Assembly: GCF_050920415.1 (NCBI RefSeq)
Contig: NZ_CP169309.1
Length of the DNA stretch: 64,000 nt
From: Escherichia coli
GTDB taxonomy: Bacteria > Pseudomonadota > Gammaproteobacteria > Enterobacterales > Enterobacteriaceae
Strand: one strand, 5' to 3'
Shown here: positions 994 through 10,535 of the stretch, one piece after another
How positions within the stretch are numbered: the first letter of the stretch is position 1
How the letters are laid out: every line of letters begins with the position of its first letter
Notes under the pieces: generated by a model
Told to the model about the DNA's origin: nothing
Database searches by the model: none
What the model saw: the letters and a program-made list of their open reading frames with translations, nothing else
Made by a program: the position numbers and the translations under genes

Positions 994-2835
994 ATGCCCT
1001 TTGAGGAACGGTATTACCGCGAAGAGCTGGATTATCTGCGCCAGCTCGGCAAGCTGTTGTCCCAGGAAAAACCGCATCTGGCCCATTTTCTGGCCGAGAA
1101 AGAGGGCGATCCGGATGTGGAACGCCTGCTGGAAGCCTTTGCTTTTATGTCCGGCAGCCTGCGCCAGAAACTTGAAGATGAATTTCCAGAATTCACCCAT
1201 GGGTTGATCCGTATGCTGTGGGCCAACTATTTACGCCCAGTTCCGGCCATGACGGTTATTGCTTATGAACCCAAAGCCAGTCAGTTAAAAGTTCCTGTTC
1301 AGGTCTGTCGTAATGAGCTGATAAGTTCAGATACAACCCGTACAACCGTTTCGGGTCGAAAACCCCTGCCAGACGACAAAGATAAATCAGAGTTACTCCC
1401 AGCCTGCCATTTCACGCTAGCAAGGGATATCTGGCTGCAACCGCTGCGCATTCTCGATACCCGCAACTCCAGCAGCCTGAAAGAAGGCGTCATCGATATC
1501 AGTTTCACCGCAGATAACAAAGTCTCCCCCGCCATGCTTGACCTGAACAAAATCACATTCTGGTTGGGTAATGAAGACGATTATACCCGACACCAGCTTT
1601 ATCTGTGGTTTTGCGAATGCCTGATGGATGCGGAGCTGATTGCCGGAGAGCGCCACCTGCCGCTGCCGGATCTGTGGCTGGAAGCTGCGGGTTTTGACAA
1701 CCAGGATGCCCTGCTGCCGTGGCCGAAAAATGTCCACAGCGGCTACCGGGTACTCCAGGAGTATTTCTGCTATCCCGAAGCCTTCTTCTTTTTTCATCTG
1801 CGCGATGTTGCGCCGCTACCGGACGATTTCCCGGTGAGTGCGTTTACGCTGCGCCTGCACTTTAACCGCCCGTTACCTGCTGACATTAAACTACGCCAGG
1901 ATTCACTGCGTCTGCATTGTACGCCAGCCATTAACTTGTTTACGCATTACGCGGAACCCGTCAGGCCGGATGGTCGGATGGCGGAATACCCACTGCGCGC
2001 CAGCCATCGACACCCGGATGCTTATGACATTTTTCAGATAAGCACCGTCACCAGTAAAGCCAAAGTTTCAGGTACTGAATCCAGCCCTGGTAGCCAGGCG
2101 CGTGTCTGGCCCGAATTTGAAAGCTTCCAGCACCAGATGGAGTACAGCCGCCAGCGGGAAGTCGTCTACTGGCACCACCGGACTAAAACATCCCTGTTTC
2201 ACCGCGGGCTTGAACATTCCATCGCCTTTGTCCATGCTGACGGCAGCATACCGGACCGTTCACTGTTTAACGATGATGTGATCACCACGTCATTACTCTG
2301 TACCAACCGGATGCTTCCGGCCCGGCTGCATACTGGCGATATCTGCGTGGCCGTCAACAAAAATCCGGCAGTGGCCTCATTTCGTAATGTCACGCGCCCG
2401 ACACAGCCGCTCTGGCCAGTAACGGACGGCGACATGCACTGGTCGCTGATTTCCGCGATGAACCTGAACTACCTCTCGCTGCTGGACAGGGAGACACTGA
2501 TCCAGATCCTGCGGACCTTCGACCTGCCAGGCGCTCACCATCCGCAACGGGCCAGACTGTCACGCCAGAAACTGGATGCCATAGAAAAACTCGAAACCAA
2601 ACCTGTTGACAGGTTGTTTAAAGGCGTACCGGTTCGCGGGCTGGCGACCACGCTGTGGATACGTCCCGATCCGTTTATCTGCGAAGGTGAAATTTATCTT
2701 CTGGGTACCGTGCTCTCGCACTTTTTTGCCCTCTACGCCAGCATCAATTCGTATCACTGTCTGAAAATCATTAACACGGAAAGTCAGGAGTCCTGGGAAT
2801 GGCAGGAGAAAATGGGCCAGCACGCCCTGATATAG
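994..2835 (+). CDS. tssF: T6SS baseplate protein TssF (ImpG/VasA family)
   Basis: 613 aa, typical length; N-terminus MPFEERYYREELDYLRQLGKLL...HFLAEKEGDPDVERLLEAFAF matches the TssF family; GGAG upstream. Confidence 0.9.
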   Translation: MPFEERYYREELDYLRQLGKLLSQEKPHLAHFLAEKEGDPDVERLLEAFAFMSGSLRQKLEDEFPEFTHGLIRMLWANYLRPVPAMTVIAYEPKASQLKVPVQVCRNELISSDTTRTTVSGRKPLPDDKDKSELLPACHFTLARDIWLQPLRILDTRNSSSLKEGVIDISFTADNKVSPAMLDLNKITFWLGNEDDYTRHQLYLWFCECLMDAELIAGERHLPLPDLWLEAAGFDNQDALLPWPKNVHSGYRVLQEYFCYPEAFFFFHLRDVAPLPDDFPVSAFTLRLHFNRPLPADIKLRQDSLRLHCTPAINLFTHYAEPVRPDGRMAEYPLRASHRHPDAYDIFQISTVTSKAKVSGTESSPGSQARVWPEFESFQHQMEYSRQREVVYWHHRTKTSLFHRGLEHSIAFVHADGSIPDRSLFNDDVITTSLLCTNRMLPARLHTGDICVAVNKNPAVASFRNVTRPTQPLWPVTDGDMHWSLISAMNLNYLSLLDRETLIQILRTFDLPGAHHPQRARLSRQKLDAIEKLETKPVDRLFKGVPVRGLATTLWIRPDPFICEGEIYLLGTVLSHFFALYASINSYHCLKIINTESQESWEWQEKMGQHALI

Positions 2836-7802: not shown

Positions 7803-10535
7803 ATGATCCAGATTGATTTAGCCACGCTGGTAAAGCGGCTTAACCCCTTTGCAAAACAGGCGCTGGAAATGGCTGCCTCGGAGTGTATGAGCCAGCAGGC
7901 CAGTGAGATCACCGTTGCCCATGTGCTGTTGCAGATGCTGGCTATCCCGCGCAACGACGTAAGGGTAATTACCGAACGCACAGGCATCAGTGCGGAGGAG
8001 CTACGCCAGGCGCTGACCGTGGAGAGTTATCCCAGCGGACGTTCCGCCGAAGGCTATCCCAGCTTCTCCCCGATGCTGGTCGAATGGCTCAAGGAGTCAT
8101 GGCTGCTGGCCTCGGCCCAGATGCAGCACAGCGAACTACGCGGCGGCGTGCTGCTGCTGGCTCTGCTGCATTCACCGCTGCGCTATATTCCACCCGCTGC
8201 TGCCCGTCTGCTGACGGCCATAAACCGCGACCAGTTACAGCAGGATTTCGCGTCATGGACTAAAGAGTCCGCCGAATCCGTGAACCAGGTTGGCGGACAG
8301 GCACCCGGCACGCCTGAAACCGGCGACAGCGGGCTTGCCCGCTACGCCAAAAACATGACCGAAGATGCCCGTAACGGCAAACTTGACCCTGTACTGTGCC
8401 GTGACCATGAAATCGACCTGATGATCGACATTCTCTGCCGCCGTCGTAAAAACAATCCGGTGGTGGTGGGTGAAGCGGGTGTGGGTAAAAGTGCCTTAAT
8501 CGAAGGGCTGGCGCTGCGTATTGTCTCAGGCCAGGTGCCGGACAAGCTGAAAAACACCGATATTATGACCCTTGACCTCGGCGCATTGCAGGCCGGGGCG
8601 TCAGTGAAGGGCGAGTTTGAAAAACGCTTTAAGGGACTAATGGCGGAAGTTATCTCGTCTCCTGTGCCGGTCATTCTGTTTATCGACGAAGCGCATACCC
8701 TGATTGGCGCGGGAAATCAGGCCGGAGGACTCGATGTTTCCGGGTTGCTGAAACCGGCGCTGGCGCGGGGTGAACTGAAAACCATCGCCGCCACCACCTG
8801 GAGCGAATACAAAAAATACTTCGAGAAAGATGCCGCGCTTTCGCGCCGCTTCCAGTTAGTGAAAGTCAGTGAACCTACCGCAGCAGAGGCCACCATTATT
8901 CTGCGTGGTCTGTCGGCGGTCTATGAACAGTCTCACGGCGTGCTGATTGATGATGACGCCTTGCAGGCCGCTGCGACATTAAGTGAGCGTTATCTCTCCG
9001 GGCGTCAATTGCCGGACAAAGCGATTGATGTGCTGGATACGGCCTGCGCCCGCGTGGCAATCAACCTGTCATCGCCACCAAAGCAAATCTCAGCGCTGAC
9101 CACCCTGAGCCACCAGCAGGAGGCGGAAATTCGCCAGCTTGAGCGCGAGCTTCGCATCGGGCTGCGTACCGACACCTCGCGGATGACGGAGGTGCTGGTG
9201 CAGTATGATGTAACGCTGACGGCGCTGGATGAACTGGAAGCCGCCTGGCACCAGCAACAGGCGCTGGTACAGGAGATTATTACGCTACGCCAGCAGTTAC
9301 TGGGCGTTGCAGAGGACACAGATGCCGTAGTGGATACGCCGTCAGAGTCAGAACAGGATAATACCGGTGCCGTACTGGCTGATGAAGCTGGCAGCGTACA
9401 GCCGGAAGAGACTGTTGAAACAGTTTCCCCGGTACAGCGTCTGGCACAGCTCACTGCCGAGCTGGACGCCCTGCATAACGACCGGTTGCTGGTTTCCCCG
9501 CACGTCGATAAAACGCAGATTGCGGCGGTAATCGCAGAATGGACCGGCGTACCGCTTAACCGCCTGTCGCAGAATGAAATGTCGGTCATCACCAACCTGC
9601 CCGTATGGCTTGGAGACACTATCAAAGGCCAGGACCTGGCGATTGCCAGCCTGCATAAACATCTGCTGACTGCACGCGCCGACCTGCGCCGTCCGGGACG
9701 TCCGCTTGGCGCGTTCCTGCTGGCTGGCCCCAGCGGCGTGGGTAAAACCGAAACCGTCCTGCAACTGGCGGAACTGCTCTACGGCGGTCGCCAGTATCTG
9801 ACCACCATCAATATGTCCGAGTTTCAGGAAAAACACACCGTCTCGCGGCTGATTGGTTCCCCTCCGGGCTATGTCGGCTATGGCGAAGGTGGCGTCCTGA
9901 CCGAAGCGATTCGCCAGAAACCCTACTCGGTGGTGCTGCTCGATGAAGTGGAAAAAGCGCACCCGGATGTACTCAACCTGTTCTACCAGGCGTTTGACAA
10001 GGGCGAGATGGCAGACGGTGAAGGCCGCCTGATTGACTGTAAAAATATCGTTTTCTTCCTGACCTCCAACCTTGGCTACCAGGTGATTGTCGAACACGCC
10101 GATGACCCGGAAACCATGCAGGAAGCCCTCTATCCGGTGCTGGCGGACTTCTTTAAACCTGCCCTGCTGGCGCGCATGGAAGTGGTGCCTTACATGCCGC
10201 TGTCGAAAGAGACGCTCGCTACCATTATTGCCGGGAAACTGGCCCGCCTGGATAACGTGCTGCGCAGCCGCTTTGGCGCGGACGTGATTATTGAGCCGGA
10301 AGTGACGGACGAAATCATGAGCCGTGTCACCCGCGCTGAAAACGGCGCAAGGATGCTCGAATCGGTCATCGACGGCGACATGCTGCCGCCGCTCTCGCTG
10401 CTGCTGTTGCAGAAGATGGCAGCCAACACGGCGATTGCCCGGATTCGTCTGTCGGCGGCAGACGGTGCATTCACAGCAGACGTGGAAGATGCTCAGGACG
10501 ACGAGTCCGTCACAGAGGATGAAACGGTTTTATGA
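7803..10535 (+). CDS. clpV: T6SS AAA+ ATPase ClpV (TssH)
   Basis: 910 aa; two Walker A motifs (GEAGVGKS and GPSGVGKT); ClpB-like N-domain; AAGGA upstream. Confidence 0.95.
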   Translation: MIQIDLATLVKRLNPFAKQALEMAASECMSQQASEITVAHVLLQMLAIPRNDVRVITERTGISAEELRQALTVESYPSGRSAEGYPSFSPMLVEWLKESWLLASAQMQHSELRGGVLLLALLHSPLRYIPPAAARLLTAINRDQLQQDFASWTKESAESVNQVGGQAPGTPETGDSGLARYAKNMTEDARNGKLDPVLCRDHEIDLMIDILCRRRKNNPVVVGEAGVGKSALIEGLALRIVSGQVPDKLKNTDIMTLDLGALQAGASVKGEFEKRFKGLMAEVISSPVPVILFIDEAHTLIGAGNQAGGLDVSGLLKPALARGELKTIAATTWSEYKKYFEKDAALSRRFQLVKVSEPTAAEATIILRGLSAVYEQSHGVLIDDDALQAAATLSERYLSGRQLPDKAIDVLDTACARVAINLSSPPKQISALTTLSHQQEAEIRQLERELRIGLRTDTSRMTEVLVQYDVTLTALDELEAAWHQQQALVQEIITLRQQLLGVAEDTDAVVDTPSESEQDNTGAVLADEAGSVQPEETVETVSPVQRLAQLTAELDALHNDRLLVSPHVDKTQIAAVIAEWTGVPLNRLSQNEMSVITNLPVWLGDTIKGQDLAIASLHKHLLTARADLRRPGRPLGAFLLAGPSGVGKTETVLQLAELLYGGRQYLTTINMSEFQEKHTVSRLIGSPPGYVGYGEGGVLTEAIRQKPYSVVLLDEVEKAHPDVLNLFYQAFDKGEMADGEGRLIDCKNIVFFLTSNLGYQVIVEHADDPETMQEALYPVLADFFKPALLARMEVVPYMPLSKETLATIIAGKLARLDNVLRSRFGADVIIEPEVTDEIMSRVTRAENGARMLESVIDGDMLPPLSLLLLQKMAANTAIARIRLSAADGAFTADVEDAQDDESVTEDETVL

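What the first reader, a model, noticed from the sequence alone, without database searches (positions are those of the whole stretch)
2799..10535. Tight translational coupling along the T6SS operon
tssF/tssG overlap by 37 nt (tssG start uncertain; GTG near 2862 would give a 26-nt gap), tagH/tssJ and clpV/vasI overlap by ATGA, and most other junctions are 2-19 nt. This is consistent with co-translational assembly of baseplate and membrane-complex subunits, and makes the start codons of tssG and tagH worth verifying.
Basis: seen in the sequence. Interest (0 to 1): 0.15.

Follow-up and report, generated by a model that had tools for sequence, protein, structure and literature searches.

The report
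Closely packed E. coli T6SS operon
The genes of this E. coli type VI secretion operon really are packed end to end, with a conserved 37-base tssF/tssG overlap, but this is ordinary operon architecture and the tssF/tssG overlap was already published for Serratia.

Summary
The window is an E. coli chromosome carrying the T6SS island beside the tRNA-Asp gene next to dnaQ. All 13 junctions from tssC to hcp are 19 nt or shorter: tssF/tssG -37, tagH/tssJ -4 (ATGA), clpV/vasI -4 (ATGA), the rest +2 to +19.

The tssG start is ATG 2799, not GTG 2862. In 10 of 10 related loci the ATG lies on an 'xxA-TGG' codon pair at the Trp 11 residues from the TssF C-terminus. The preceding codon varies but always ends in A, and AGGAG lies 8 nt upstream. 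The variable linker stays in frame with no stops.

TagH starts at 3853 or 3865, giving a gap of 4 or 16 nt. Position 3865 is slightly favoured. tssL (ATG 7020) and tssM (GTG 12742) starts are conserved and differ from RefSeq.

In 18 distant plasmid-borne T6SS loci tssF and tssG also always overlap.

Coupling is plausible for tssF to tssG but was not tested. Both ATGA overlaps join a cytoplasmic protein to an exported one, which argues against co-translational assembly there. Neighbouring housekeeping operons show the same junction types. English et al. 2014 already reported the tssF/tssG overlap. Interest is low.

The parts
13..558 (+). 3' part of tssC (sheath large subunit); it runs off the left end of the window
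   Evidence: TIGR03355 hit at 2.5e-81; PGAP annotation of the 100%-identical record
563..988 (+). tssE, gap +4 after tssC
   Evidence: TIGR03357; SD dG -6.2
994..2835 (+). tssF, gap +5 after tssE. It ends ...SWEWQEKMGQHALI*, with the conserved Trp 11 residues from the C-terminus
   Evidence: TIGR03359 at 1.4e-164; the C-terminal W-x10-stop motif is shared with most of the distant T6SS loci (C or Y replaces W in three)
2786..2790 (+). AGGAG Shine-Dalgarno sequence for tssG, formed by the Gln-Glu codons of tssF, 8 nt before ATG 2799
   Evidence: dG -6.9 against -1.7 for GTG 2862. GGAG is kept in 9 of 10 related loci (full AGGAG in 8); the tenth has AAGGAA
2799..2835 (+). 37-nt tssF/tssG overlap. 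The tssG ATG is the last base of a tssF codon plus TG of the Trp codon (gaA TGG)
   Evidence: The ATG is conserved in 10 of 10 related loci although the preceding codon varies (GAA, GTA, ACA, CGA, AAA). The same geometry occurs in Photobacterium, Rahnella, Leisingera, Ralstonia and Mesorhizobium
2799..3848 (+). tssG, 349 aa, long form
   Evidence: TIGR03347 at 6e-105. Orthologue N-termini start with Met and share a similar opening, e.g. MAGENGPARPDI or MGGQNRPARPDV. The linker to the NFY motif is 26-74 nt, always in frame, with 0 stops against 2 and 7 in the other frames. EAEC TssG in PDB 6GIY has 26 residues before NFY
2862..2864 (+).
   Evidence: No SD (dG -1.7). The codon is ATC, GTC, GCC or GTT in L006, L007, L009 and L010, and L008 aligns differently
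3853..5145 (+). tagH (FHA scaffold). The start is ATG 3853 (gap +4, AGGGA SD) or ATG 3865 (gap +16, the PGAP choice)
   Evidence: TIGR03354; FHA and T6SS_FHA_C domains. The 3865 equivalent is present in 9 of 9 loci (GTG in one) and the 3853 equivalent in 7 of 9. Upstream starts are excluded by stops in orthologues
5142..5666 (+). tssJ lipoprotein; ATGA overlap (-4) with tagH
   Evidence: TIGR03352. ATGA is conserved in 9 of 9 loci with GGGAG (GGAG in two loci) upstream. Lipobox LTGC
5669..7015 (+). tssK, gap +2
   Evidence: TIGR03353
7020..7793 (+). tssL, gap +4. RefSeq calls 7038
   Evidence: TIGR03349. An ATG at +3 or +4 with an AAGGGGA- or AAGAGG-type SD is conserved in all 9 loci compared, whereas 7038 is not
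7803..10535 (+). tssH/clpV, gap +9
   Evidence: TIGR03345, 1119 bits
10532..11275 (+). vasI, with a predicted signal peptide; ATGA overlap (-4) with clpV
   Evidence: TIGR03360 and PF11319. The overlap is -4 in 7 of 9 loci and -1 in 2 of 9
11280..12722 (+). tssA, gap +4
   Evidence: TIGR03362; SD dG -7.4
12742..16269 (+). tssM, GTG start, gap +19. RefSeq calls CTG 12832
   Evidence: TIGR03348. GTG with an AAGGAG or CAGGAG SD and N-terminus VF(K/R)xP is conserved in 8 of the 9 loci compared (L008 has VLRM)
16281..17639 (+). vasL-like gene, gap +11 (or GTG 16278, +8)
   Evidence: PGAP annotation 'VasL domain-containing protein'; SD dG -11.9
17657..18136 (+). hcp (tssD), gap +17; last gene of the chain
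   Evidence: TIGR03344

Best explanation
This is the main operon of the E. coli T6SS island that sits beside the tRNA-Asp gene next to dnaQ. It is probably one long transcription unit whose genes abut or overlap.

Shown:
- All 13 junctions are 19 nt or shorter.
- tssG starts at ATG 2799, 37 nt inside tssF. The ATG is locked onto the codon pair 'xxA-TGG' of a conserved TssF tryptophan, and its AGGAG Shine-Dalgarno (SD) sequence lies in tssF codons.
- Selection holds that start in place, while the roughly 25-residue TssG N-terminal peptide it adds varies in length and sequence.
- The tagH/tssJ and clpV/vasI ATGA overlaps are conserved.

Inferred:
- tssG translation is linked to tssF translation. 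Ribosomes reading the tssF 3' end keep the tssG site open and/or re-initiate there. This would favour production of the two mutually dependent baseplate partners from the same mRNA.
- The ATGA and short-gap junctions give generic termination-reinitiation or local-ribosome coupling together with independent SD-driven initiation, as in ordinary compact operons.
- Tightness along the whole operon reflects a single, compact, horizontally mobile transcription unit. It does not reflect co-translational assembly at every junction.
For: - Identity: the 1.8 kb tested (window 2500-4300) is 100% identical to E. coli NZ_CP169399.1; 578 of 5426 E. coli genomes carry the locus; annotation; NCBIfam equivalogs for most genes in the chain.
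- Junction arithmetic and SD energies.
- tssG start: the ATG is conserved in 10 of 10 loci with five different preceding codons, all ending in A. GGAG is kept in 9 of 10. Linker lengths of 26, 35, 38, 53, 59, 65 and 74 nt are all in frame, with 0 stops in the tssG frame against 2 and 7 in the other frames.
- Distant T6SS: tssF and tssG overlap in 18 of 18 plasmid-borne loci from Gamma-, Beta- and Alphaproteobacteria, Campylobacterota and Gemmatimonadota. Overlaps are 37 or 46, 25, 16, 4 or 1 nt. The Arg codon AGA precedes TGG or TGC in Ralstonia, Leisingera and Rahnella.
- TssF and TssG are partners in solved baseplate structures 6GIY and 6N38.
- English et al. 2014 (PMC4072051) report overlapping tssF/tssG and 'likely translational coupling' in Serratia. 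They could not overproduce TssG or isolate soluble TssF when the two were expressed separately.
- Promoter-like and terminator-like sites are not enriched inside the operon: 9 against 10.6 expected and 15 against 18.8 expected.
Against: - Coupling is not demonstrated. Every downstream gene, tssG included, has its own credible SD, so independent initiation is possible.
- No conserved RNA structure sequesters the tssG site. RNAalifold finds 0 pairs, and the single-sequence z-score is -1.5.
- A 37-nt backward distance is long for simple reinitiation (my own knowledge of reinitiation studies).
- Conservation of the first 12 TssG codons among close relatives could be a by-product of the conserved TssF C-terminus GQHAL(I/M).
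- The tagH start is not resolved.
- No transcript or ribosome-profiling data were available.
Confidence: 0.8

Rival explanations
1. The tssG start is mis-called. The gene really begins at GTG 2862 (or ATG 2889) and tssF and tssG do not overlap.
For: GTG 2862 is in frame, lies just before the first conserved TssG motif (NFY), and is present in the five closest loci. Long overlaps are often artefacts of choosing the longest ORF.
Against: There is no SD before 2862 or 2889 (dG -1.7 and +0.9, against -6.9 for 2799). The GTG is replaced by ATC, GTC, GCC or GTT in the more distant orthologues, whereas ATG 2799 is invariant. The linker keeps its frame through seven different lengths with no stops. 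The same 37-nt geometry recurs in distant lineages.
Confidence: 0.04
2. One reading: tight spacing along the whole operon exists to allow co-translational assembly of baseplate and membrane-complex subunits.
For: Operon-encoded complexes tend to place interacting subunits next to each other (Wells et al. 2016, PMC4742563). TssE, TssF and TssG are adjacent, and TssF and TssG interact. English et al. 2014 describe mutual dependence of TssF and TssG.
Against: The two ATGA overlaps pair cytoplasmic TagH with the exported lipoprotein TssJ, and cytoplasmic ClpV with signal-peptide-bearing VasI. These cannot meet while being translated. TssK, which binds TssFG, is separated from them by tagH and tssJ. 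The same junction types occur in unrelated housekeeping operons in this window.
Confidence: 0.15
3. There is no coupling at all. The short junctions are neutral compaction of a horizontally transferred island, and each gene is initiated independently at its own SD.
For: Every start has an SD of dG -5 to -12. No masking structure was found. Junction lengths match those of ordinary neighbouring operons.
Against: Neutral compaction does not explain why the tssG ATG is held on the TssF Trp codon through five different preceding codons, with the Arg codon AGA used in Ralstonia, Leisingera and Rahnella. It also does not explain why tssF and tssG overlap in 28 of 28 loci, or why the ATGA overlaps are kept in 9 of 9 and 7 of 9 loci.
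Confidence: 0.25

Closest known systems
tssF/tssG overlap in Serratia marcescens Db10 (English et al. 2014, Biochem J 461:291, PMC4072051)
   Same: tssF and tssG are overlapping genes, the tssG ribosome-binding site lies inside tssF, and the authors propose translational coupling. TssF and TssG form a complex that binds TssK.
   Different: It is a different T6SS cluster and organism. That paper shows one locus and gives no comparative analysis. Here the start is shown to sit on the conserved TssF Trp codon, and the overlap is present in 28 of 28 loci sampled.
V. cholerae large T6SS cluster VCA0107-VCA0123 (gene order recalled from my own knowledge)
   Same: The gene order is the same: tssB-C-E-F-G-fha(tagH)-J-K-L-clpV-...-vasI-vasJ(tssA)-vasK(tssM)-vasL. 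NCBIfam models built on that family hit every protein. A Vibrionaceae relative (Photobacterium, L012) has the same 37-nt tssF/tssG overlap.
   Different: No vasH regulator gene lies between clpV and vasI here. In the Photobacterium locus tagH and tssJ are separated by 20 nt rather than overlapping.
Generic 4-nt (ATGA) and 1-nt (TGATG, TAATG) overlaps in bacterial operons
   Same: tagH/tssJ and clpV/vasI have exactly this form. Three further ATGA overlaps and one 1-nt overlap lie in housekeeping operons of the same window.
   Different: Nothing distinguishes the T6SS ones.
EAEC Sci-1 TssKFGE baseplate wedge (PDB 6GIY, 6GJ1, 6N38)
   Same: TssG here aligns to EAEC TssG (E = 7e-25), with the NFY motif at residue 26 against 27. 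The structurally characterised protein is therefore the long form. Sci-1-like loci on plasmids (E. asburiae, Rahnella) also show the 37-nt overlap.
   Different: The similarity is remote (E = 7e-25; identity not computed). The EAEC locus itself was not examined.

Membership tests
Canonical (proteobacterial-type) T6SS main operon | Core genes tssC, E, F, G, J, K, L, H, A, M and hcp are present and co-directional | tested here: met
   NCBIfam equivalog or family hits above cut-off for each. tssB, vgrG and PAAR lie just upstream of the window in the identical record.
Canonical (proteobacterial-type) T6SS main operon | A single transcription unit | tested here: inconclusive
   Gaps of 19 nt or less leave no room for promoters or terminators, and consensus scans show no enrichment. 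No transcript data were available.
Translationally coupled gene pair | The downstream start codon overlaps or abuts the upstream stop on the same strand | tested here: met
   tssF/tssG -37, tagH/tssJ -4, clpV/vasI -4, others +2 to +19. The pattern is conserved in orthologues.
Translationally coupled gene pair | Downstream translation depends on translation of the upstream gene | not testable with these tools
   This needs reporter fusions with an upstream premature stop, or ribosome profiling.
Translationally coupled gene pair | The downstream ribosome-binding site is masked by mRNA structure that upstream ribosomes open (the classical coupling mechanism) | tested here: not met
   The fold of 2750-2870 has z = -1.5. 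RNAalifold on 10 orthologous junctions finds 0 conserved pairs.
Co-translational assembly of operon-encoded subunits | The adjacent genes encode directly interacting subunits in the same compartment | tested here: inconclusive
   Met for tssF/tssG (PDB 6GIY and 6N38). Not met for tagH/tssJ or clpV/vasI, where the downstream protein carries a signal peptide.
Co-translational assembly of operon-encoded subunits | The nascent chain of one subunit is engaged by its partner | not testable with these tools
   This needs selective ribosome profiling or pulse-chase assembly assays.
Programmed -1 frameshift fusion (considered because tssG is in the -1 frame of tssF) | A slippery heptamer X XXY YYZ in the overlap, conserved among relatives | tested here: not met
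   No such heptamer occurs in 2799-2835, and the stretch GAG AAA ATG is not conserved (L003-L005 have a 3-nt deletion and different codons).

The most novel reading that the evidence does not exclude
The tssF/tssG overlap may be an ancient, selected device of T6SS baseplate biogenesis. The tssG start is held either on the conserved Trp codon 11 residues from the TssF C-terminus (37 nt) or at the tssF stop (4 or 1 nt). It may tie TssG synthesis to TssF synthesis, for example to produce the 2:1 TssF:TssG wedge or to prevent unpaired, unstable subunits. On this reading the variable TssG N-terminal peptide exists mainly to reach back to that start.
Probability: 0.35. Interest if true: 0.35.

Novelty: already known. 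Interest (0 to 1): 0.12.

Why it matters
Little changes for biology. Compact, overlapping junctions are normal for operons, and the tssF/tssG overlap with proposed coupling is already in the literature.

There are practical gains:
- The tssG long form can be trusted, so in-frame tssF deletions must spare the last 50 nt or so of tssF. Otherwise they remove the tssG ribosome-binding site and start codon and cause polar effects.
- The RefSeq starts for tssL (7038) and tssM (CTG 12832) in this locus are probably too far downstream.
- The tssF/tssG overlap appears universal across very distant T6SS loci. That makes it a clean test case for anyone studying how overlap length sets subunit ratios.

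Tried and rejected
- GTG 2862 and ATG 2889 as the tssG start: rejected, because neither has an SD and neither is conserved.
- Upstream TTG starts for tagH (3703, 3757, 3799): rejected, because orthologues have in-frame stops there.
- A conserved RNA hairpin masking the tssG site: none found.
- A programmed -1 frameshift fusing TssF to TssG: no slippery site.
- Internal promoters or terminators: not enriched.
- Solved structures for TagH: none found by sequence.
- An internal TagH start like V. cholerae Fha M262: an invariant Met exists, but the SD is weak and inconsistent, so this is left as a lead.
- PMC5559785 was checked for tssF start-codon information and was irrelevant.
- I did not run the genome contigs or metagenome scans. 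The 28 loci obtained cheaply answered the question.

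
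Full report
**What the window is.** Window 2500-4300 is 100% identical to the E. coli chromosome NZ_CP169399.1. The locus is present in 578 of 5426 complete E. coli genomes. RefSeq annotates a T6SS island there: tssB-C-E-F-G-tagH-J-K-L-H-vasI-A-M-vasL-hcp. It is followed by a hypothetical gene, tRNA-Asp and dnaQ (the tRNA is at window 19593-19669). NCBIfam gives above-cut-off hits for each protein in the chain except the vasL-like one.

| Junction | Distance (nt) |
|---|---|
| tssC > tssE | +4 |
| tssE > tssF | +5 |
| tssF > tssG (ATG 2799) | -37 |
| tssG > tagH | +4 or +16 |
| tagH > tssJ | -4 (ATGA) |
| tssJ > tssK | +2 |
| tssK > tssL | +4 |
| tssL > clpV | +9 |
| clpV > vasI | -4 (ATGA) |
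| vasI > tssA | +4 |
| tssA > tssM | +19 |
| tssM > vasL | +11 (or +8) |
| vasL > hcp | +17 |

**The tssG start.** Predicted TssG orthologues that are 56-88% identical are almost all 340-362 aa. The full-length ones start with Met and share a similar opening, for example MAGENGPARPDI or MGGQNRPARPDV. Gene callers favour long ORFs, so I examined the DNA of nine related loci, L002-L010.

- In all ten sequences the tssG ATG is made of the last base of a tssF codon plus TG of the codon for a conserved tryptophan (…xxA TGG…).
- The preceding codon is GAA, GTA, ACA, CGA or AAA. That is five different amino acids, and the codon always ends in A.
- GGAG, in the tssF Gln-Glu codons 8 nt upstream, is kept in 9 of 10 (full AGGAG in 8). 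The tenth has AAGGAA.
- The stretch from the tssF stop to the first conserved TssG motif (NFY/NFF) has seven different lengths: 26, 35, 38, 53, 59, 65 and 74 nt. All are in frame with the ATG.
- That stretch has no stop in the tssG frame, against 2 and 7 stops in the other two frames.
- GTG 2862 has no SD (dG -1.7 against -6.9) and is ATC, GTC, GCC or GTT in the more distant loci.
- EAEC TssG in the solved baseplate (6GIY) has 26 residues before the NFY motif, so it is the long form.

The start is therefore ATG 2799 and the 37-nt overlap is real.

**How general the overlap is.** A tblastn search of TssG against plasmids found 444 records, and I examined 18 diverse loci. tssF and tssG overlap in all 18.

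- 37 nt (or 46): Photobacterium, two Enterobacter plasmids, Rahnella, Leisingera, Ralstonia and Mesorhizobium.
- 25 nt: Burkholderia sp. SFA1.
- 16 nt: Caballeronia.
- 4 or 1 nt: Pantoea, Campylobacter, Sagittula, Rhodovulum, Pseudoalteromonas, B. multivorans and Gemmatirosa.
- Sinorhizobium and Rhizobium binae are annotated at 1 nt but also carry an ATG at the 37-nt position.

TssF ends with a conserved W-x10-stop in most lineages (three have C or Y in place of W). The 37-nt class places the ATG on that Trp codon (Cys in Ralstonia), and Ralstonia, Leisingera and Rahnella use the Arg codon AGA before it. The TssG peptides encoded in the overlap are unrelated between lineages. What is conserved is the position of the start, not the peptide.

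**Other starts.**

- tagH: the 3865 equivalent exists in 9 of 9 loci compared (GTG in one), with GGAR six nt upstream in the window and seven of the eight other loci, including L007, which lacks the first ATG. The 3853 equivalent exists in 7 of 9 and has the better SD in the window. Starts further upstream are excluded by stops in orthologues. The gap is 4 or 16 nt either way.
- tssL: ATG 7020 (+4) with a strong SD is conserved in all loci compared. RefSeq's 7038 is not.
- tssM: GTG 12742 (+19) with AAGGAG is conserved in all loci compared, and the N-terminus VF(K/R)xP in eight of the nine. RefSeq's CTG 12832 coincides with the first position of the TIGR03348 profile and falls in the first hydrophobic segment.
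- The ATGA at tagH/tssJ is kept in 9 of 9 loci. clpV/vasI is -4 in 7 of 9 and -1 in 2 of 9.

**Is it unusual?** In the rest of the window, 12 of 27 co-directional pairs are 19 nt or shorter, against 13 of 13 in the T6SS chain (Fisher p = 0.0005). Compared only with neighbouring pairs of 40 nt or less there is no difference (Mann-Whitney p = 1.0). Overlaps are equally common (3 of 13 against 6 of 27). Three ATGA overlaps and one 1-nt overlap occur in housekeeping operons of the same window. Only the uniformity over 18 kb stands out.

**Mechanism.** The following are shown: the start sites, their conservation, an SD for every gene, no conserved masking RNA structure at the tssF/tssG junction, and no enrichment of promoter-like or terminator-like sites.

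Coupling of tssG to tssF translation is inferred. It is consistent with English et al. 2014, who reported the overlap in Serratia, proposed coupling, and could not overproduce TssG or isolate soluble TssF when each was expressed alone.

Co-translational assembly cannot explain the two ATGA overlaps. TssJ (lipobox LTGC) and VasI (signal peptide ending PASA) are exported, while TagH and ClpV are cytoplasmic. A -1 frameshift fusion was considered and rejected because there is no slippery site.

**Verdict.** The feature is ordinary and already described, so interest is low. The most novel reading left open is that the universal tssF/tssG overlap is a selected device for stoichiometry or co-assembly.

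Noticed in passing
window 7020-7040 and 12742-12834: RefSeq/PGAP starts in the 100%-identical record are probably too far downstream. tssL is called at 7038, but ATG 7020 is conserved. tssM is called at CTG 12832, which matches the first position of the TIGR03348 profile and cuts into the first hydrophobic segment, but GTG 12742 with AAGGAG is conserved.
   Followed up: yes
window 4498-4500 (TagH Met in FMDLPP): This internal Met is invariant in 9 of 9 loci compared and lies 34 residues before the T6SS_FHA_C domain. Its position resembles the internal start M262 that produces a short Fha isoform in V. cholerae (PMC13389060). The SD here is weak and inconsistent (dG +0.4 to -5.6), and alignment to a Vibrionaceae TagH is ambiguous.
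   Followed up: partly
L009 8190-11065 (E. coli GCA_018555195.1): An orphan vgrG plus a tssF-tssG pair that still has the 37-nt overlap. Downstream of tssG, where tagH onward would lie, are small HTH-domain and integrase genes.
   Followed up: no
window 18478-19263 (- strand): A 261-aa predicted lipoprotein (signal peptide ...LLAGC) in a 39% GC stretch between hcp and tRNA-Asp. It has no Pfam or NCBIfam hit. It could be island cargo, for example an immunity or accessory protein.
   Followed up: partly
L021 1427-3172 (Sagittula sp. P11 plasmid): tssG is annotated as 581 aa, with a long charged N-terminal extension in front of the TssG domain. It starts 4 nt inside tssF.
   Followed up: no
window 3907-4977 (- strand) and 9348-10097 (- strand): Long antisense ORFs (356 and 249 aa) lie inside tagH and clpV. 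They are probably chance open frames in GC-rich coding sequence.
   Followed up: no
window 27816-33000 (- strand): A ribosomal RNA operon with tRNA-Asp, tRNA-Ala and tRNA-Ile genes lies downstream of the island. It accounts for the strong negative GC skew at 28-34 kb.
   Followed up: partly
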